Shown here: piece by piece, positions 1 through 31,893 of the stretch
Layout of the letters: every line of letters begins with the position of its first letter
How positions within the stretch are numbered: position 1 is the first letter of the stretch
Assembly: GCA_030390025.1 (NCBI GenBank)
Contig: JASTWF010000031.1
Location: forward strand, 3,596,001-3,660,000
Direction: 5' to 3'
DNA length: 64,000 nucleotides
DNA from: Squalus acanthias
Lineage: Eukaryota
Notes under the pieces: model-generated
What the model was told of the DNA's origin: nothing
The model's database searches: none
The model's input: only the letters and a program-made list of their open reading frames with translations
Made by a program: the position numbers and the translations under genes

Positions 1-449
1 AGCACCTTGCTGCACATCAGGGGGGCCATGAGGACCTGTATCTGCACTGGCAGTCCTACTCAAAAGGACTTCCATGAAGCACTGGTTTCTCTGCTCAATC
101 GCTCCTCCAGAGATGTCAGTCTATTCTGAACATTCACCATGTTTTCCAGACTCTGGTGACTTATTTCCTCCATGGCTGTAGCCATCCTCTCCTCTACCAT
201 TGCCAACCTTTCCAGAGAGGTAGCCATCCTTACCATGGAGGTAGCCATCATTTCCACGGAGGTTGTCATCCTTTCCGTGGTGGTGCGTTCATGCGCCATT
301 GCCTCCACAAAGGCACTGCGCATGTTAGAGTTGGACTCCTCCATCCTTCCACACTCGCAGTAACCCTGGAGACAAAACCTGCCAGAGACTCCTGCACTTG
401 TTCCTGGAGTTCCAGCACCGCTCTCTTTCTGGATGGACTCGGAGACACA

Positions 450-1325
450 GGGGGGAAAATTCAGTTGGTTGCGCCTCCCGTTAGTGCCTTAAGAGGGCGC
501 TAATGGGGTGCAAATCATCTAGCGCCCAGGCGTGGCGATGTTTGCGCCGCTCGCGAAATTAACTAGACACTTTGCAGCGGCGCTAAACACTACCGCCACG
601 ATCTCCTGCGCCGGCAGATCGTGACGTCAGTCGAGTGTGCAACGCCCCAGTATCGCCCCGGAGCGGATATTGAGTGGAGCCCCCTGCCTTACCGCCTGAC
701 GCTAGCAACGACATGTTGAGGGGAGCCTTTTGCAGTCATGAAGGGACTGGGGGAGCGCTATTTAAAGGCGACCGCTTCCTGCCTTTTATTGTTGGTGCCA
801 TTTTTGAACCACGCATTCTGAGAGAGAGGGAGAGAGTCTTCTGGAGAGATTCAACGCTGTGTGAAGGAGTTTTAGGTACTGAGCAGCACTTTACAGGTTC
901 ATTTTGATTTGCCATTCCTTGTATCGATTTAGAAGAGATTGTGGGGGCTGCACTCTGAGCTCTTTCCTTGGTACTCTCCATTGTTCTTTCCAGCAGATTT
1001 GATGTGCAGGTCTCTCCAGGCCGAGATTCAAGGCTGCAATGAGCAGGATGTGGATGGAAAGCAAGATCAACCATCCCCTTTAAGAACTGGCCCGTGCCAT
1101 TGTGTGTGTGTTCCATTGCTGACTGACATCACATGAGCTTCGCCAGCGCTCTGAGGTAGCGCCTCGCTCCCAGGCCTTTGCGCCTTAAGACAGGTGTGAA
1201 GCGCCTGATTTAGTGCTCCAATCACCTCCAGGGGCGATAAAAGTCAAGTTTGCAGTCGGTGGCGATAATCTTTGCGCCCGGCCAATAATTGCGCCCCAAA
1301 TTGGGCGATACTGAATTTCTCCCCC
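450..1325. mobile_element. Harbinger-like MITE, family A copy 1
   Basis: TIRs GGGGGGAAAATTCAG / CTGAATTTCTCCCCC with 3-bp TSD ACA (447-449, 1326-1328). Splits the Myb exon. Confidence 0.85.
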
Positions 1326-1653
1326 ACAGGGTCCACATGCAGCTGAGCATAGCTGGGAGTGCCCTGCGGCCTCCGACGAGGACTCTCCACTGTTGTCCCT
1401 GTCTCCACCATCTGCTGTTGCTCACTTGTGAGCTGTGATACACCAGGTGAGAACACTACTCTATCTCCCGAAGGTCTTACCGATGTGTGCGTATCTGCGC
1501 TGGTGCTAGGTCCGCTTAATTCTGCTGACACTGCGCCCTCAGAGGTTGCAGGTTCCACTGAGGAGTCTTCATGCTCAGGCTCTTCCTCCTGGACAGTGGG
1601 GAGGGGGGCTGTTGATGGTCCTATGGGGGAGTAAAGGCATGAGTTAGACATAT

Positions 1654-2401
1654 GGGGGTAAAAATTCAGTTGGTTGCGCCTCCCGTTAGCGCCTTAAGAG
1701 GGCGCTAATGGGGCGCAAAGCCGCTAACGCCCGGGCGCAGCGATGTTTGCGCCGCTCGGGAACTTAACTAGACATTGTGCGGCGGCGCTAAACTTTACCG
1801 CTGCGACCACCTGCGCGCACAGATTGTGACGTCATTCCATGGTGCAACGCCCTTGTGGCGCCCCGGAGCGGAAATTGAGTGGCGCCCCCTGCCTTACCGC
1901 CTGGCGAATCCAACGACCGGAAGACTGGAACGCTATCAATCGCTGTGGGGCTGGGGGGGGGCGCTATTTAAAGGGGGCCTCTTCCTGTCTTTTTCTGTGG
2001 TTGACATTTTTGCACCACTCGTTCTGAGAGAGAGAGAGAGATTCGGAGAGAGAGAAAGAGAGACTTCTGCATTGAGTCAACGCTTTGTGAGGTAGTTTTG
2101 CCTACTGATCCTAACAGTTGGCCCCCCCCCCCGCTTTAAGAACTGGCCTGGCGCCAGTGTGTCTGTGTTCCCTCGCTAACTGGCAGCACCTGCGCTGCGC
2201 TCGCGCGCTGAGTTAGCGCCTCACTGCTCGGCCTTTGCGCCTTAAGACAGGTGTGCAGCGCCTGATTTAGCGCTCCACTCACCTCCCGGGGCGGTAAAAG
2301 TGAAGTTTCCAGTCAGTGGCGATAATTAGCGCCAGGCACTAATATTTGCGTCCAGACGATATTTGCGCCCCAAACGGGGCGCGACCTAATTTTTCCCCCC
2401 C
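1654..2401. mobile_element. Harbinger-like MITE, family A copy 2
   Basis: Colinear with 450-1325 in the same orientation (GGGGGTAAAAATTCAGTTGGTTGCGCCTCCCGTTAG ... AATTTTTCCCCCC). Lies in the Myb intron; TSD imperfect (TAT/GAT). Confidence 0.8.
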
Positions 2402-3849
2402 GATATTAACGCAGCATGTGCAGATGATCATAAGTCATTCTGTATGCGCATCAGAAGCCATATCAGTCACTCATGCAATGTCATTGAGAGAGATGCAAAA
2501 CAATTCTGTCACCAGCTTGCTCTGAGGCGCCCGTCTGTCCGTCCCCCACTTCCAGATCCTCCTCGGCTCCAACGATCTCTAGGGCCGCCTCCTCAGTGCT
2601 TGTGAGATGGGCTATTGAGGGTGGCCCTCCTCCTGTCTTCGCCCTTTCCCTCTTATTGTGGGCTCTCTTTTCCTGCAATGAGGGACACAAGTGGAGTTTC
2701 AGTGATCATGATGGAGTGAGTGTAGAGAATCCATAGCATAGATGCTTAGAAGGAGGCAAAGATGGAGTGAGGTACCAAGACCAAGGGCCCTCCCTGTGTG
2801 TTGTTAGTTGTTGTCATTGCATCACAGCGATAGGGAGTGTGAGGGCAGCATAGTCGAATAGTGAAGTGATTGTGTACATAGAGAGAGAGGGATGTTTAAG
2901 GGTGCAAGGGATGTAAGGGTAAAGTGGGATGTGTAGGAGTAGGTTGCCAATGCAGAGTGCTGGTGCTGAGAGGAGATGGGAGCAGAATGAGGGTAAAGGT
3001 GATGGTCTACTCACTTTTCCTGTGTGGACAAGGTCATTGAACCTCTTTCAGCACTGCAGCCAGGCTCTGCTGCACAACGATCTGGAGCTCACCTCATGAG
3101 CCAGTTGCAGCCACACAGCTATGGTCTGCTGGGGAGGTTTTATCCTCCCAGAGGAAGGAAAGGGCACCTCCTTTTGAACTCTGGCTCCCTCCATCAGAGC
3201 ATGGAGGGAGTCATCATCGAATCGTGGTGAGGCTTTGGCCCTTGAGCTCAACATTTCAGCAGTAGCAAAGACTTCAAGCAGGTGTAACTGTGGAAGGACA
3301 TAGGAATAAAATGAACTAAAGCTGCTTGCAGGCCTTAAATGCAGCTGGAGAAATGACATCACCAGAGGCGAGTTTCAGTCCCAAAAGACTAATTGGGCCA
3401 GGGGAGCGCACACACAGGGAATCAATTGCCCAATTAGGGCAAAAATCGCAATTTTTTCCCCGCCCGACAGCGGAGGCGGGATCGGGACCCGCCGACCACC
3501 TGACCCGCACCCAACCCGCCACCAATGGCAAAATCGAGCCCCAAGTCTTTTATAATAAAACTCTATTTATGATTGCACACATCTTAAGAGCGTTTTTGGA
3601 GTTTCAAAGCTGATTTTTGAACAAAGCAATCTTAACAAAAAGGAACCTGTCATATATCATTCTGTGTCATTGCACCATACATATAGACACATGCCTATGT
3701 AGAATCCTAATTCAAGCAAACTGCAATTTTCAGTAACTGTTAGCTGCAATTTAGCTGATAGTGTCCTGCAGGCAAATTCTGCAGTGTGCATGTATTGTGC
3801 AGGCTCCTGCGATATCCCTTTGTTGTGCCGCCAGAGTGTTTCGGAAGGT

Positions 3850-4393
3850 GTCTATGCTCACTTGTCTCATGTTACAAGACGGTCGTATTTTCAAAACTAT
3901 CTGATCCATGGTAGCAATTAAAAAGGAACACACTCCCATTGATTACAGAGGGTCTGTATCACTGCCTTTCAACCAAACAATTTGAGACTTTACATTGGAA
4001 GGGGGAACTGGTGGGAAATCAAGAATGAAAGAACAATTCGTTCCAAGCCTAGACATTAAGAGCACTTTGCACAGAACTAAAAGGCCCCCAGTTCAAGTCT
4101 CCGAGCTGACGAGCAGTCCAACTCACTTTCCTCAGTTGGGCAAATCAGTCACTCTCAGATAGGCTCCTGGGTGGAGTTGACAGGCAATTGTGTGGTGATG
4201 CAGAAGTGAGGTGTTGTAGAGTGTATTAATTGTAGAGTGTAATTCCAATGTAAAGTCTCAAATTGTTTGGTTAAAAGGCAGTGATACAGACCCTCTGTAA
4301 TCAATGGGAATGTGTTCCTTTTTAATTGCTACCATGGATCAGATAGTTTTGAAAATACTACCGTCTTGTAACATGAGACAAGTGAGCATAGAC
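3850..4393. repeat. 151-bp inverted duplication (3850-4000 / 4243-4393)
   Basis: Direct reverse-complement match with 3 mismatches. Confidence 0.95.
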
Positions 4394-4543
4394 GCGAGGT
4401 TTCAGATCGATATTCAAGTGGTCTTTATTACGCCGGCGGGGAGCCAGTCTCTCACCAACAGACTTCTCCAACTTGTTACAGTGTATACAGCATTTTTATA
4501 CTTTAAAATACCTCATGGTGACCTAATTGACTTACGGATGATG
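4212..4543 (-). repeat. 3' LTR, rearranged and truncated
   Basis: 4212-4242 matches the LTR end TGTTGCAGAGTGTAA with a partial duplication. 4391-4524 matches 6882-7015 with 3 mismatches. 4525-4543 matches ~7090-7108. Interrupted by 4243-4393. Confidence 0.85.
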
Positions 4544-4955
4544 TTCCCTTATTTCTCTCCTGAGCCCCTTTAGTTGGTGGTCTAATGTTTGTACATAAGT
4601 CCTAATTTTGTCCCTTATTGGTCCTAATTCCTCACTCCCAGAGGCCACACCTTCGGGTAGCTGCATTGCACGTCCGGTCATAAGTTCATATGGTGTTAAC
4701 CCGGTCATTCTACTAGGAGTTGCCCTTAACCGCATTAGGATACACGGGAGGACATCTACCCACCCTTGTCCGGTCTCGGCTATTGCCTTTGCTAGAGCCG
4801 TCTTTATGGTCCGGTTCATCCGTTCCACCATTCCTGAGCTCTGCGGGTGATAGGGTATGTGGAACTTCTGCCTTATTCCTCATAACCTACATGCCTCCTT
4901 CATAACCTTTCCTGTGAAGTGTGTCCCTTGGTCTGAGTCGATCTGTAACGGGACC
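4532..4955 (-). pseudogene. pol: Integrase catalytic core fragment
   Basis: PLQIDSDQGTHFTGKVMKEAC...FHIPYHPQSSGMVERMNRTIKTALAK...WVDVLPCILMRLRATPSRMTGLTPYELMTGRAM contains the second D and the E of the DDE triad. Confidence 0.92.
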
Positions 4956-6250
4956 CCCCTTTAATTAGTCTTTGTATAGGCTCTGCCTTTTCTGCGAAGT
5001 CTGACATAAAATTTCTACAATAGTTAAACAATCCTATGACCTTCCTGACTCCCCTAACGGTGAGTGGCCTTGGCATAGTTTGTATGGCCATTTTCCAGTC
5101 CTCAGGGAGGGCCTTGTATCCTTGGCTGATCTCGTGTCCCAGGTACTTGACCCGGGACATCCCAACTTGTGCTTTCTTGGGGTTTATCTTAAATCCTGCC
5201 AGTTTGAGGGCTTGTAGAGTGGTGAGCAAGGCCCCCATATGCCCCTTCTTATCTTCCGATGCTATCATTATATCATCCACATACTGAAGGAGGGTACTTC
5301 AGTACTTAGTCAAGTCGAGGTCCTCCAGGGCCCTACTCATTACCCTGGTGGAATATATTTGGGCTATTGTGAAATACCTGTGGGACTCTGGTCCACGTAT
5401 ATTGTTTCTCCCCAACAGTAAAAGCAAATTTATTCTGTGACTCTTCTGCTAGTGGGATGGACCAAAATCCATTTGCTATATCCAGGACGGTGAATATTTC
5501 ATATGCTGGCTTTAAACCATTAAATATCATTGAGGGGCTCGCCACAATCGGGTGCTCTCGTGGGGTGACCCTATTTAATGCAATGTAGTCTATTGTCAAC
5601 CTGGAGGACCCGTCGGGTTTTCCCACCGGCCATATTGGTGAATTGGTAGTGGTAGTACCCCTTGTTTTACCAGATCTATTACTATCGTATTCACCGCTTC
5701 CTTCGCTGCCGGTCGCATTGGGTATTGTCTGTGGGCCTTGTGCTCCGGTCCTGATACAACGACTGAGTCGGTAATGACCAACCCGCAGTCCTGTTTGACA
5801 TAAGGTTCCCCATATCCCGTCTCGCGACCAGTCCCTCTCTAGTGGTTTTATACTTCCGATTTTTGCCATGTAATTTGCAACGGTTTTAGTCTCATATTTC
5901 TTGTCTGTCCTTCGCTTTTGCACTACTGTCTTATTCCGTACATCGATTACTAGGTTCAACTCGCTGAGTATGTCCACCCCATGGATTGTTCCTTCTGGAT
6001 TTTCACATACCCATAACTGTACAGGGAGGAATATTCCTCCCAGTTCTAGTAATTGCGTTTCACTTTTGTAGGCGCGCATGTGTTTCCCGCCCACTCCCTC
6101 TATTAGTATGGAGGTTTTGGTACATGGGAGGTCCAAATTGGTTATAGACACCGCTGCCCCTGTGAGGACTAACATATCACACTGCCGGCCCCCTAACAGT
6201 GCAGTCAGATACATTCGGGGATCGGTGCCATTTCCGGGGGCCGATGCTAC
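4956..6250 (-). pseudogene. pol: Protease and reverse transcriptase, frameshifted; RNase H deleted
   Basis: MLVLTGAAVSI (DTG motif mutated); RQYP; NSPIWPVGKPDGSSRLTIDY; FTVLDIANGFWSIPL; YTWTRVPQVFHNSP; QYVDDIMIAS; VKYLGH; VRKVIGLFNYCRNF. Confidence 0.93.
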
Positions 6251-6736
6251 CTAGCATTTTTGTGACAAATTTTTTATGATTTCGATCAATTGGTCCTTGT
6301 TCAGATCTCCCACTTCTGTTGCCTGCTCACTACAGGTATTTCCCTGTTGCTTGGGGCCTTTACCCGCTTTTCCCCCGCCCGGTGCCCAACAGTCCCGCTG
6401 TTCATGTCCCGGTTTGTTGCAGTTCCTGCACTTTCTCCGGGTGTCTCTCCTGGGCTGTGTGCATTCGTTACGCCTATCATTTTTAAGCAATTTTTCAATT
6501 AACCGTTTGTTTTTTCCTGCTAGGTACCGTGTGAGGGACCCTTCTGGCCCCCAATCGAGCTCGTCCTTTTTACCGTTTAGTTATTGTCAGCGGTATGCCT
6601 GTTACCGTACTTCCTCCCGAAGTCAGCGCACTACTTGCAACTTATACCACGCCAAATGTTCCGCGTGTTTCGCCCAGACCCCTTTCGACCACTTGACCTA
6701 CCGATCTCAACCTTCAGGTTTCTTTTTGTTCTCCAT
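6251..6736 (-). pseudogene. gag: gag remnant with one CCHC zinc knuckle
   Basis: CRNCNKPGHEQRDCW (C-X2-C-X4-H-X4-C). Likely start ATG at 6736 (MENKKKPEG). Several stops; most of the capsid region is missing. Ends in TAG at 6251-6253. Confidence 0.85.
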
Positions 6737-6834
6737 GGAAGATACTGCCTCGCCCTAACTAGACGTGGTAATTTAAATGTACTCACGTTCCTTTGGCTTG
6801 GCTGTATTCATCCGTGTCTCCCGTCTGGTAGAGA

Positions 6835-6852
6835 ATCCTGCCGACTATGCCA
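6835..6852 (-). promoter_or_regulatory. Primer binding site, tRNA-Ser
   Basis: Minus strand TGGCATAGTCGGCAGGAT, 2 nt after the LTR. Matches 17/18 to the complement of the vertebrate tRNA-Ser 3' end (ATCCTGCCGACTACGCCA). Confidence 0.88.
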
Positions 6853-6854
6853 AT

Positions 6855-7249
6855 TGTTGCAGAGTGTAATAACCGACACTCGACGTGAGGTTTCAGATCG
6901 ATATTCAAGTGGTCTTTATTACGCCGGCGGGGAGCCAGTCTCTCACCAACAGACTTCTCCAACTTGTTACAGTGTATACAGCATTTTTATACTTTCAAAT
7001 ACCTCATGGCGACCTTGTGACTTGTTACAATCTTATTGGACTTCTGCAGTTGCTTAATTGGATTGCAAGCTGCATGATTCAAAGTGGCCAATTGACTTAC
7101 AGATGATGCAATGCAGCATTTGGTTGATTTCATTAACTCTGGGTATAGCTGCTGATTTAAAGGTCAGTTTCGATCACATTACAAAACCTCGTCAAGATGT
7201 TTTCTGTTGCTGTCAGCAAATTTTTAACTTGAACTCTTTTCCCACTTCA
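6855..7249 (-). repeat. 5' LTR (395 bp)
   Basis: TGAAGTGGG...TGCAACA. Ordered CCAAT (7039-7035), TATAAAAA (6991-6984), AATAAA (6920-6915). Confidence 0.88.
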
Positions 7250-7714
7250 TGAGGTATTTGTCAAATTGGTATCAAATTTTGTCTGATAACACTCCTGTGA
7301 AGTGCCTTGGGATGTTTTACTACATTAAAGGTGCGATATAGATGCAAGTTTTTGTTGTTGAAGTGGAAGTTTCCCCAATCACCATTTACCACTTAATCAA
7401 CTCGACCAAAACAGAGGAAGAGAAATTGGGCCTCGCGTGCCCAATTTTTGGGCAAAATATTTGCATTGGAGGAAACTATTTTGGGTCATGATTTCTCGTT
7501 TCCAATATCCCCCAGAAGTTGCCACCTGCCAGATTGGATGTCGGCGACTTCCAAGTGCCCAGGGTATTAGGCACCTTGAATATCAAATCAAGGTCTTGCT
7601 GCTTGTTTGAGGACCCGACTCCAAATTCGTCATCAATTTGCTTTTCCAGGTTGACAATGGCTTAACTAGCGGTCCTTAAAAGGACCACTAGAGGTTGCCC
7701 TCAAAAAGGTAAGT

Positions 7715-8192
7715 AATCCTTAGAGCAGAGAGGGTTAACAGGATTTTTAATAGAGTTGCTCAAAATTAAGAGGGGTTTTGATAGAGTAGATAGGGAGAAA
7801 CTGTTTCCACTGGCAGCAGGGTCAGTAACCAGATGACATAGATTTAAGGTAATTGGCAAAAGGACCAGAGGGGAGATGAGGAGAATTTTTTTTACGCAGC
7901 GAGTTGTTGTGATCTGGAATGCACTGCCTGAAAAGGTGGTGGAAGCAGATTCAATAGTAACTTTCAAAAGGGAATTGGATAAATACGTGAAAAGGAAAAA
8001 TTTGCAGGGCTATGGGCAATGTTCCCTTTAAGCTGCGCAACCCCTTAAAAGGGCTGCGCACCCAAAAAAAAATGAGGGGGAACATTGGCTATGGGGAAAG
8101 AGCAGGGGGTGGGAGTAATTGGATCGCTCTTTCAAAGAGTCGGCACGGGTACGATCGGCCGAATGGCCTCTTTCTATGCTGTATGATTATGA
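7715..8192 (+). mobile_element. CR1 LINE 3' fragment
   Basis: Degenerate LIE..KI.RGFDRVDREKLFPLA.GSVTR.HRFKVIGKR...RRIFFTQRVVVIWNALP, then 3'UTR ...GGCCGAATGGCCT... Confidence 0.85.
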
Positions 8193-13516: not shown

Positions 13517-14412
13517 GGCCGGAACTTTCCCCTAAAAAATGGGTGGGTTTGGAGCGAGGGGCCAGTTAAATTGTTAAAATTGGGATTCCCAACCTGATCC
13601 GCCTCCAACCCTCTCTCTTCCGGTTTTAATGGAGGTGGGATGGGGGGTGGAGCGGGTGACCAATTCGCTCCCAGGGGGCGCTACGTTAATTTAAATATTA
13701 TAATGAGCCTGGAAGCCTCTTTTTTTCACCTCCATTTTGAATTTAACTGCCTGTGGATGGGTTTCACACAATTCGTGAAACCCGGTAGTTAAGCCGAGGT
13801 GGGAACTGCTGCATCCAGGAGGTAAGTGGCTTTATACCTACCTCCTGGATCCAGGGTCCCTGCCTAACTGAATCCCTGCGATTGGAGACCCCACCACGAG
13901 GCCTCTGATCACCTCCCCAGGCCTCCGATCCCCACCATGAGGCCTTCCTCCCCCACAATCTTCGGTGGCTGGCCCCGATCCTCTCCCTCCCCCTGCCGAT
14001 TCTCTGGCTGAACCCACGTCGACCCCCCAATCATCCGGCCGACCCCCCCGATCCCTGGCAGATTCCAATCCCAATCCTCCCCCCCTGCTGATCCCAACCC
14101 CCCCTCCCCGCTGATACCCAATCCTCCCTCCCCGCCAAGCCCCTGCTGATCCCCGATACCCCCCACCGCCCCCCACGATACCCGACAAAGCCCCCACCGA
14201 TCGCCGATACCCCCCCACCCCCCACGATCCGCGACCAAGCCTCTGCCGATCAGCCCCCCATCCTTCCCCTGGACCGACCCCTTGCTCCCTCTCTGCATCT
14301 GCAGGCCTACCTGCCTGCAGCCAGCCAGCCAGCCAGCATCTCAGGCAGGGCCTGTGGGGAACCCGGCCTCCCGGGTTTCCCGCCTGCCTCAGAGGAGCCT
14401 CCCCCCCCCCAC
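13517..14412. mobile_element. Non-autonomous DNA element with internal C-rich CCGATC-type minisatellite
   Basis: Abrupt GC shift within the CR1. 13880-14290 is an array of CCCCGAT(C/A) units. Right end unclear. Confidence 0.55.
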
Positions 14413-29662: not shown

Positions 29663-31893
29663 ATCCTGAACTTAAACAAAGGTAATTACAAAAGTATGAA
29701 GGCAGACTTGGTTAAAGTGGACTGGGAAAATATATTACAGGGTAAGACTGTAAAAAGCAGCGGCAAACATTTAAGGAGATATTTCATAACTCTCAGCAAA
29801 GATATATTCCAGTGAGAAAGAAAGACTCTAAGAGAAGGATGAACCATCTGTGGCTAACTAAGGAAGTAAAGGATGGTATCAAATTGAAAACAAAAGCAAT
29901 GTTGCAAAGAATAGTGAAAGACCAGAGGATTGGGAATTTTTTTTAAACCAGCAAAGGATGACTAAAAAAATGATAAAGAGAGAGAAGATAGCTTATGAGA
30001 GTAAGCTAGCAAGAAATATAAAAACAGACAGTAAGAGCTTCTACAGGTATATAAAAAGGAAGAGAGTAGCTAAAGTAAATGTTGGTCCCCTAGAGGATGA
30101 GTCTGGGGAATTAATAATGGGAAACAGGGAAATGGCGGAGACTTTGAACAAATATTTTGTATCGGTCTTCACGGTAGAAGACACTAAAAGCATCCCAATA
30201 ATGGATAATCAAGGGGCTATTGGGGTGGGGGGTAACTTGAAACAATCACTATCACTAGAGAGAAAGTACTAGGCAAACTAATGGGACTAAAGGTGGGCAA
30301 GTCCCCTGGACCCGATGGCCTGCATCCTAGAGTCTTAAAAGAGGTGGCTGCAGAGATAGTGGATGCATTGGTTGTAATCTACCAAAATTCCTTGGATTCT
30401 GGAGAGGTCCCAGCGGACTGGAAAACTGCAAATGTAACACCCCTGATAAGAAAGGAGGGAGACAGGAAGCAGGCAACTATCGACCAGTTAGCCTAACATC
30501 TGTCATTGGGAAAATGCTGAAGTCCATCATTAAGGAAGTGGTAGCAGGACATTTAGAAAATCATAATATAGTCAAGCAGAGTCAGCATGGTTTTATGAAA
30601 GGGAAATCATGTTTGACAAATTTGCTGGAATTCTTTGAGGATATAACGAGCAGGGTGGATAAAGGGGAACCAGTAGATGTCATGTATTTGGATTTCCAGA
30701 AGGCATTCGATAAGGTGCCACATAAAAGGTTACTACACAAGATAAGAGCTCACGGGGTTGGGGGTAATATATTAGCATGGATAGAGGATTGGCTAACTAA
30801 CAGAAAACAGAGAGTTGGGATAAATGGGTAATTTTCAGGTTGGCAAACTGTAACTAGTGGGGTGCCGCAGGGATCAGTGCTGGGGCCTCAACTATTTATA
30901 ATCTATATTAATGACTTGGATGAAGGGACTGAGTGTAATGTAGCCAAATTTGCTGATGATACAAAGATAGGTGGGAAAGCAAATTGTGTGGAGGACGCAA
31001 AGAATCTCCAAAGGGATATAGATAGGCTAAGTGAGTGGGCAAAAATCTGGCAGATGGAGTTTAATGTGGGAAAATGCGAGGTTATCCACTTTGGTAGGAA
31101 AAATAAAAAAGCAAATTATTATTTAAATGGGGAGAGATTAGAAAATGCTGAGGTACAGAGGGATCTGGGGGTCCTTGTACATGAATCACAAAAAGTTAGC
31201 ATGCAGGTACAGCAAGTAATTAGGAAGGCAAATGGAATGTTGGCCTTTATTGCAAAGGGAATGGTGTATAAAAGTAGGGAAGTCCTGTTACAACTGTACA
31301 GGGCGTTGCTGAGACCACACCTGGAGTACTGCGTACAGTTTTGGTCTCCTTATTTAAGGAAGGATATACTTGTATTGGAGGCAGTTCAGAGAAGGTTCAC
31401 GAGGTTGATTCCGGAGATGAAGGTGTTGTCTTATGAAGAAAAGGTTGAGCAGGTTGGGCCTATACTCATTGAAGTTTAGAAGAATGAGAGGGGATCTTAT
31501 TGAAACATATAAGATTCTGAAGGGGCTTGACAGGGTAGATGCAGAGAGGATGTTTCCCCTCGTGGGGGAATCTAGACCTAGGGGGCATAATTTCAGAATA
31601 AGGAGGTACCCTTTTAAATCGGAAATGAGGAGGAATTTCTTCTCTCCAGAGGGTCGTGAATCTTTGGAATTCTCTTCCCCAGAGAGCTGTGGAGGCTGGA
31701 TCATTGAATATATTTAAGGTGAAGATAGACAGCTTTTTGAAAGGTAAGGGAGTCAAGGGTTATGGGGAGCGGGCAGGGAAGTGGAGTTGAGGCCAAGATC
31801 AGATCAGCCATGATCTTATTGAATGGCGGAGCAGGCTCGAGGGGCCAAATGACCTACTCCTGCTCCTACGTCTTATGTTTCTTATGTTCTTAT
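29663..31893 (+). mobile_element. 5'-truncated CR1 LINE with nearly intact RT (pseudogenised)
   Basis: KSPGPDGLHPRVLKE; QHGFMKGKSCLTNLLEFFE; YLDFQKAFDKVPH; PQGSVLGPQLFIIYINDL; KFADDTK; few frameshifts or stops; (CTTATGTT)n tail. Confidence 0.95.

What the first reader, a model, noticed from the sequence alone, without database searches (positions are those of the whole stretch)
4212..7249. Divergent endogenous retrovirus with tRNA-Ser primer, 5-bp TSD and CCHC gag in a probable chondrichthyan genome (lokiretrovirus-like candidate)
Seen: TSD TGAGG, a 395-bp LTR with CCAAT/TATA/AATAAA, PBS-Ser, one zinc knuckle, YVDD RT with NSPIWPV.KPDGS.RLTIDY, LDIANGFWSIPL and PQ.FHNSP, and IN with DSDQGTHFT / HPQSSGMVER. 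Known: these RT and IN motifs are retrovirus-like rather than typical Ty3/gypsy (which usually has MPFGL); foamy viruses lack CCHC knuckles and prime with tRNA-Lys. Inference: the combination fits a deep-branching lineage such as lokiretroviruses, which as far as I recall were not reported from cartilaginous fish, or an unnamed clade. env is deleted in this copy, so placement cannot be read directly. About 2% LTR-LTR divergence suggests fuller sibling copies may exist.
Basis: partly seen in the sequence, partly recalled or inferred. Interest (0 to 1): 0.75.

Follow-up and report, generated by a model that had tools for sequence, protein, structure and literature searches.

The report
Deleted deep-branching shark retrovirus, not lokiretrovirus
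This is a dead, heavily deleted endogenous retrovirus of a deep-branching group already catalogued in the whale shark; it is not a lokiretrovirus, and its mild interest is that the group seems to sit at the base of the gamma/epsilon retroviruses while keeping snakehead-retrovirus-like features.

Summary
The provirus is real (4212-7249, minus strand, TG..CA ends, 5-bp TSD, Ser-type PBS, gag-TAG-pro-pol), but it is not a lokiretrovirus. Both native RT pieces fall in a shark clade (99/98) inside ordinary Retroviridae; forcing it with lokiretroviruses is rejected for RT (p-AU 0.0007), RNase H (0.0009) and integrase (0.003). By-eye comparison shows the same lineage was printed in 2018 as whale-shark rh_ty_ERV4, and the same PBS type occurs in the elephant-shark SnRV-like CmiERV. 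Two first-reader traits are damage: the single knuckle (relatives have two; about 350 aa of Gag are missing) and the 2% LTR date (3 mismatches in the 134 nt that survive). Tether, RNase H, both ends of integrase and env are missing. Residual interest: RT, Gag tail and PBS look SnRV/class III-like, yet RNase H, integrase and whole-Pol trees put the clade on the gamma+epsilon stem; contigs suggest the deleted form was copied in trans. The scan noted a similar SnRV-like shark ERV elsewhere in this genome (e1-7789907).

The parts
4207..4211 (+). target-site duplication, left copy (TGAGG)
7250..7254 (+). target-site duplication, right copy (TGAGG)
6855..7249 (-). 5' LTR, 395 nt, TG..CA, with CCAAT, TATA and AATAAA boxes
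   Evidence: other copies at about 85-90% identity in organism A contigs (table 8 records 7, 12)
6835..6852 (-). primer-binding site, tRNA-Ser type; 17 of 18 bases as in the published CmiERV scaffold 2 PBS
   Evidence: tRNA identity recalled, class III precedent in PMC8278194
6581..6834 (-). 5' leader
   Evidence: position between PBS and gag remnant; inference
6254..6580 (-). gag remnant: N-terminal piece fused in frame to the nucleocapsid tail; about 350 aa (most of MA, all CA, most of knuckle 1) missing; surviving CCHC at about 6395-6436
6251..6253 (-). amber stop between gag and pro in the same frame (read-through layout, as in SnRV locus L028)
5861..6250 (-). protease region, active-site motif not intact
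   Evidence: Pfam RVP E 0.002
4957..5860 (-). reverse transcriptase, broken by frameshifts (near 5840, 5650, 5346) and a stop (5299-5301); YVDD at about 5270-5282; ends where the tether should begin
4535..4957 (-). integrase core remnant, fused to RT across a deletion of about 516 codons; stop at 4880-4882; C-terminus, env and PPT missing
4212..4543 (-). 3' LTR remnant: 19 nt + 134 nt matching the 5' LTR, inverted flank insert, and the terminal ..CA
4243..4393 (.). 151-nt inverted copy of the flank 3850-4000 (3 differences), inserted into the 3' LTR after integration

Best explanation
A dead provirus of an ordinary (non-loki) deep-branching retrovirus lineage of sharks, the one sampled in 2018 as whale-shark rh_ty_ERV4. 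The intact virus primed reverse transcription with tRNA-Ser, made Gag-Pol by read-through of an in-frame stop, had two zinc knuckles and a tether plus RNase H (shown in relatives), and integrated with a 5-bp duplication (shown here). This copy cannot code for a working Gag, Pol or Env (shown). Its big RT-to-IN deletion probably existed before this insertion: the shortened RNA kept LTR, PBS and leader and was packaged and copied by a helper of the same family (inferred, about 0.6); local damage to the 3' LTR came afterwards (inferred). Within Retroviridae the lineage most likely branches on the stem of gamma+epsilon (class I) and keeps ancestral class III/SnRV-like traits in RT, Gag tail and PBS (inferred, about 0.55).
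For: RT trees of 94, 71 and 45 rows: both native window pieces in a shark clade with P0005, P0008 (Mustelus), P0010, P0017 (Heterodontus), support 99, 99 and 99/98; Retroviridae proper 100/99 apart from loki and gypsy. Intact relatives carry RT_RNaseH_2, RNase_H, Integrase_H2C2 and rve. rh_ty_ERV4 shares the Gag tail, in-frame stop, protease start and all RT motifs (by eye). Stem-class-I position: IN tree with the window's own piece 96/98, RNase H 100/98, whole Pol 99/100; whole-Pol AU rejects shark+SnRV+class III (p 8e-53) and shark+fish kin+SnRV (p 0.0005); RT does not reject the stem position (p 0.39). Copying in trans: organisms B and C each show 2 listed contigs across the RT-IN junction (4919-5192, 17-21 differences) while their flank contigs leave the window at 4206, the element's edge; both laid samples of organism A cross that edge.
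Against: RT alone does not decide the placement: a clade-Huo grouping is also not rejected (p 0.23), and of 62 reference loci SnRV is the best hit for the Gag tail (51%), RT1 (60% vs 41% next) and RT2 (42% vs 37%). Xu et al. list Rh_ty_ERV4 among the tips between the Huo and Tu labels of their RT tree (tip order only). IN alone does not reject shark+SnRV (p 0.10). P0015 sits nearer class I than the shark clade in the Pol tree, so the stem is a grade. RNase H and whole-Pol results rest on relatives, not on this copy. The empty site in B and C is inferred from where contigs stop; no joint across the element was among the 15 of 953 joints shown. rh_ty_ERV4 was not in my trees. AU tests used LG+G4, and the stem test on RT was named after seeing the IN/RH trees.
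Confidence: 0.8

Rival explanations
1. Mosaic: a clade-Huo (SnRV/class III) virus by Gag and RT whose ancestor took RNase H and integrase from a class I virus by recombination; same dead copy, different history.
For: SnRV is best reference hit for Gag tail and both RT pieces, but epsilon/gamma are best for tether, RNase H and IN; Huo grouping not rejected on RT (p 0.23); repeated RH/IN replacement is argued in PMC7947760.
Against: RT equally allows the stem-class-I position (p 0.39, with a smaller likelihood cost: 5.2 vs 13.8), so no swap is needed; the teleost kin show the same pattern; similarity to SnRV can be shared ancestral state.
Confidence: 0.3
2. First cartilaginous-fish lokiretrovirus.
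For: Shares the NSPIWPV..P.G..RLTIDY start of RT with Loki rows; relatives have tether plus RNase H; none of 6 cartilaginous genomes is starred as Loki-positive in PMC7947760.
Against: AU rejects the union for RT, RNase H and IN; the shared motif also occurs in SnRV, HERV-L and CmiERV rows; loki palm motifs differ; dual RNase H is common to all retroviruses.
Confidence: 0.02
3. An early relative of foamy viruses (clade Tu).
For: Shark+foamy is not formally rejected on RT (p 0.086); foamy IN is among the better hits of P0005.
Against: CCHC knuckles, in-frame gag-stop-pol, MLV-type RT-RNase H as best solved match (385 vs 194 bits); RNase H, IN and Pol trees exclude foamy.
Confidence: 0.04
4. All deletions happened in place after a complete provirus integrated here, in an ancestor of organisms A, B and C; no copying in trans.
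For: Junction-spanning contigs in B and C could be this same locus; X1 record 3 spans the junction at single-copy depth.
Against: B and C flank contigs stop matching at 4206 with 59 and 66 letters left over; their junction contigs differ more from the window (6-8%) than the flank does (about 4%).
Confidence: 0.3

Closest known systems
rh_ty_ERV4, whale-shark ERV of Xu et al. 2018 (PMC6001957, S2 Data and S2 Fig)
   Same: Gag tail (knuckle followed by WA.GGG..G.GPKQQ), tail of a first knuckle, in-frame stop before pro, protease start, RT motifs (by eye)
   Different: TGA rather than TAG at the gag-pro border; different host; that record is a published consensus and was placed by RT only; this copy is heavily deleted
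Snakehead retrovirus (SnRV, locus L028) and clade Huo / class III ERVs
   Same: best reference hit for Gag tail and RT pieces; gag-TAG-pol in frame
   Different: SnRV has one knuckle and a different PBS (Arg type by recall); RNase H, IN and whole Pol of this lineage group with gamma+epsilon, not SnRV
CmiERV lineage I (elephant shark, Han 2015, PMC4422223)
   Same: same PBS type right after ..AACA; same RT and IN motif set (by eye)
   Different: one knuckle, long LTR, gamma-type env as read by eye; probably another branch (not treed)
Class I retroviruses (epsilon WDSV/WEHV, gamma MLV)
   Same: RNase H, IN and whole-Pol trees place the clade on their stem; read-through gag-pol
   Different: RT excludes nesting inside them (p 0.018); Ser-type PBS and class III-like RT motifs
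Lokiretroviruses (PMC7947760)
   Same: start-of-RT motif, dual RNase H layout
   Different: separate clade in RT, RNase H and IN; different palm motifs; env not available here

Membership tests
Lokiretrovirus | RT falls in the clade sister to all other retroviruses | tested here: not met
   p-AU 0.0007. Loki references were picked by motif match to the paper's Loki rows; two carry fish names
Lokiretrovirus | RNase H groups with foamy viruses (group I) | tested here: not met
   on relatives P0005/P0010; p-AU 0.0009; absent from this copy
Lokiretrovirus | Integrase of the loki (CGIN1-related) clade | tested here: not met
   window IN piece and relatives; p-AU 0.003
Lokiretrovirus | Tether plus RNase H | tested here: met
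   in relatives; shared with all retroviruses, so not diagnostic
Lokiretrovirus | Env like paramyxo/pneumovirus F | not testable with these tools
   env missing; no genome held; no fuller DNA copy found
Retroviridae proper | RT inside the retrovirus clade; LTR-PBS-gag-pro-RT-tether-RH-IN order | tested here: met
   100/99
rh_ty_ERV4 lineage (Xu 2018) | shared Gag tail, gag-pro border, protease start and RT motifs | tested here: met
   by eye on printed sequence; not placed in a tree
Clade Huo / SnRV-like | RT clade with SnRV and class III ERVs | tested here: inconclusive
   not recovered, not rejected (p 0.23; shark+SnRV 0.052)
Clade Huo / SnRV-like | whole Pol groups with SnRV/class III | tested here: not met
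   p-AU 8e-53 and 0.0005
Class I crown (gamma, epsilon) | RT nested with gamma+epsilon | tested here: not met
   p-AU 0.018; outside the 98/97 clade
Class I stem | RNase H and IN of the gamma/epsilon type | tested here: met
Foamy viruses | no CCHC knuckle; RT, RH and IN in the foamy clade | tested here: not met
   knuckles present; trees 70, 75, 94; RT alone p 0.086
Ty3/gypsy | RT in Metaviridae, single RNase H | tested here: not met
Odin retrotransposons | RT in the Odin clade | not tested
   no labelled Odin reference; position inside Retroviridae proper makes it unlikely

The most novel reading that the evidence does not exclude
The shark clade and its teleost kin are a stem lineage of class I retroviruses that RT-only trees have filed under clade Huo: they already carry the gamma/epsilon-type RNase H and integrase but keep a tRNA-Ser primer, a two-knuckle Gag with an SnRV-like tail and a class III-like RT. 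They would date the RNase H and integrase replacements proposed in PMC7947760 to before the gamma/epsilon RT took shape, and fuller copies may show which envelope (gamma-type or F-like) that ancestor used. A deleted derivative spread non-autonomously across related shark species.
Probability: 0.5. Interest if true: 0.45.

Novelty: new member of a known kind. Interest (0 to 1): 0.25.

Why it matters
As a lokiretrovirus in a shark it would have filled a host gap; it does not. What is left is a usable phylogenetic point: a shark and bony-fish lineage whose RT looks class III but whose RNase H and integrase look class I would help order the steps by which gamma/epsilon retroviruses arose, and warns that RT-only clade labels can misfile deep fish ERVs. 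This particular copy is too deleted to be the specimen for that work.

Tried and rejected
No genome is held, so no genome-wide LTR search. Searches for DNA of fuller relatives found none: viral contigs with P0005, metagenome contigs with the RT piece and with P0005 (one 26% hit), so env stays unseen. A loki motif found 0 matches in viral contigs; loki references came instead. PBS search in the loki supplement gave only one match inside a coding region: loki primer use not established. No RNA holder listed. The careful mixture-model RT tree did not finish; the quick mixture tree is reported. Rows were hand-picked: 92 of 254 extracted RT domains plus 2 window pieces, then 71 and 45 rows; P0198 was relabelled from gypsy after it fell among class III rows; class II is absent from RH, IN and Pol trees. 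My first reading (SnRV-like, clade Huo, about 85%) was lowered. Sequence look-ups in earlier findings gave nothing. Summed contig depth was not used as copy number. Atlas search of P0017 Gag gave only generic retroviral Gag clusters. LTR dating rejected as too thin (3 of 134).

Full report
Observation. The element lies on the minus strand at 4212-7249 between two TGAGG copies (4207-4211, 7250-7254). The 5' LTR (6855-7249, 395 nt) has TG..CA ends, CCAAT, TATA and AATAAA boxes and is followed after two bases by an 18-nt PBS. A gag remnant, an amber stop, protease, RT and an integrase core follow. Three readings need correcting. The 3' LTR is a remnant: 134 nt match the 5' LTR with 3 differences, 19 nt more with 1, and a 151-nt inverted copy of the outside flank is inserted in it; the 2% age is therefore very loose. 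The Gag remnant matches residues 11-38 and then 378-447 of the horn-shark protein P0017, which has two knuckles, so the single knuckle is a product of deletion. Against the intact relative P0005, residues 414-929 (tether, RNase H, IN zinc finger) and everything after 1067 are missing, with env and the polypurine tract.

Relatives. The RT piece found P0001/P0005 and P0002/P0010/P0008 at 75-77% identity; P0008 is from the shark Mustelus asterias. P0005 carries RT, tether-like RNase H, RNase H and integrase, and its best solved match is MLV/XMRV-type RT-RNase H (385 bits; Ty3 214, foamy 194). A wider search gave 62 proteins, with Heterodontus, cyprinid, eel, herring, coelacanth, frog and turtle records next. 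The host is thus probably a shark (inference; the species was not identified).

Lokiretrovirus test. Reference retroviruses were fetched from viral contigs by motif; L028 and L037 match the labelled SnRV and WDSV rows in the supplement of PMC7947760. Loki references came from a representative search and were chosen by match to that paper's Loki palm motifs. In RT trees of 94, 71 and 45 hand-picked rows the two native window pieces, entered separately, fall with P0005, P0008, P0010 and P0017 (99, 99, 99/98), inside Retroviridae proper (100/99), with loki a separate clade. Forcing the shark clade with loki is rejected for RT (p-AU 0.0007), RNase H (with foamy, 0.0009) and integrase (0.003). None of 6 cartilaginous genomes screened in that paper is marked positive, and this locus does not change that. 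Env could not be tested.

Already catalogued. The supplement of Xu et al. 2018 prints whale-shark rh_ty_ERV4, which by eye shares the tail of a first knuckle, the second knuckle and its glycine-rich tail, an in-frame stop before pro, the protease start and the RT motifs. In the text of their RT tree it stands among the tips between the Huo and Tu labels, beside cyprinid, eel and turtle ERVs (branching not visible). The elephant-shark SnRV-like CmiERV of Han 2015 has the same PBS type and motif set, and the class III XtERV-S primes with tRNA-Ser. Cyprinid kin appear among recently inserting ERVs in PMC10435555 (by eye). So the feature combination is not new.

Where it branches. RT alone is unresolved at this depth, as PMC8922424 warns. 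Among 62 reference loci SnRV is the best hit for the Gag tail, RT1 (60% vs 41%) and RT2 (42% vs 37%), and shares gag-TAG-pol. RT rejects nesting with gamma+epsilon (p 0.018) but not foamy (0.086), SnRV (0.052), SnRV plus fish kin (0.18), all of Huo (0.23) or the stem of class I/II (0.39). The other domains are clearer: the window's own integrase piece and its relatives group with gamma+epsilon (96/98), as does RNase H of relatives (100/98) and whole Pol (99/100, 34 rows), and whole Pol rejects grouping with SnRV/class III. Against this: IN alone does not reject SnRV (p 0.10), class II is absent from these trees, the model is LG+G4, and Pol trees mix domains with possibly different histories. 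I prefer a stem-class-I lineage with ancestral traits (about 0.55) over a recombinant with a Huo RT (about 0.3). I found no paper stating this placement in searches; S3 Fig of bioRxiv 2021.11.23.469661, not visible to me, may bear on it.

How this copy arose. Shown: it integrated by the normal retroviral route (TG..CA, 5-bp duplication) and now codes for nothing intact. Contigs of 4 of 17 listed runs were laid (tables cut). Both samples of organism A cross the left junction (3940-4303). Organisms B and C follow the flank at about 96% and leave at 4206, which suggests an empty site, yet each shows two contigs across the RT-IN junction at 92-94%. Read together, the deletion is older than this insertion, and a shortened RNA with LTR, PBS and leader was copied by a helper virus (inferred, about 0.6). 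The inverted flank insert is later local repair (inferred).

Papers seen. PMC7947760: main text parts 1-3 of 4, supplement part 1 of 75 and searches (file cut at 300 of 318 pages). PMC4422223: part 1 of 2, supplement 1 part 1 of 3. PMC6001957: passages, section 7, supplement searches, S2 Fig text. PMC10435555: passages, search of 12 of 14 supplements. PMC8922424, PMC4977317, PMC8278194: passages. bioRxiv 2021.11.23.469661: passages and section 8. PMC9040795: listing and a term search with no hits. PMC11089739: listing only. Recalled, not from a call: tRNA identities of the PBSs, L032/L036 as WEHV-type, the genus labels of other L references (by motif and length), CR1 as the LINE type.

Verdict. 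A new, badly damaged member of a known shark ERV lineage; not a lokiretrovirus. Interest 0.25; the stem-class-I reading would deserve about 0.45 if confirmed on fuller natural copies.

Noticed in passing
window 4243-4393 vs 3850-4000: 151-nt inverted copy of nearby flank inside the 3' LTR; at two of its three differences the copy agrees with the flank letters in runs X1, X6 and X7, so it was templated before those flank changes.
   Followed up: partly
window 30331-31739 and 7717-7983: Non-LTR (CR1-like by recall) RT and endonuclease remnants; very high-copy short repeats at about 3327-3444, 7268-7357 and 7890-8190.
   Followed up: no
P0047, P0071, P0072, P0081: Unnamed ENA proteins form a branch beside the loki references in RT, RNase H and IN trees (100/99), with a FVDD active site and dual RNase H; host unknown; may be divergent loki or Odin-like elements.
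   Followed up: partly
P0003, P0028, P0032, P0033, P0233: Proteins annotated 'Gypsy retrotransposon integrase-like 1' or 'NYNRIN-like' in coelacanth, frog and eel are retroviral Pol of deep ERV branches.
   Followed up: partly
P0063: A fish foamy-like Pol is annotated in a Vagococcus fluvialis MAG, probably host DNA contamination.
   Followed up: no
L028: SnRV integrase groups with foamy integrases (96/95) in my IN tree, possibly a long-branch effect.
   Followed up: no
window 5913-6197: A more distant (about 82%) and deeper-covered related ERV family is present in organism A contigs (record 5).
   Followed up: no
window 443-2399 and 14043-14223: A dispersed GC-rich repeat pair (80-85% alike) and a C-rich degenerate tandem array.
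   Followed up: no
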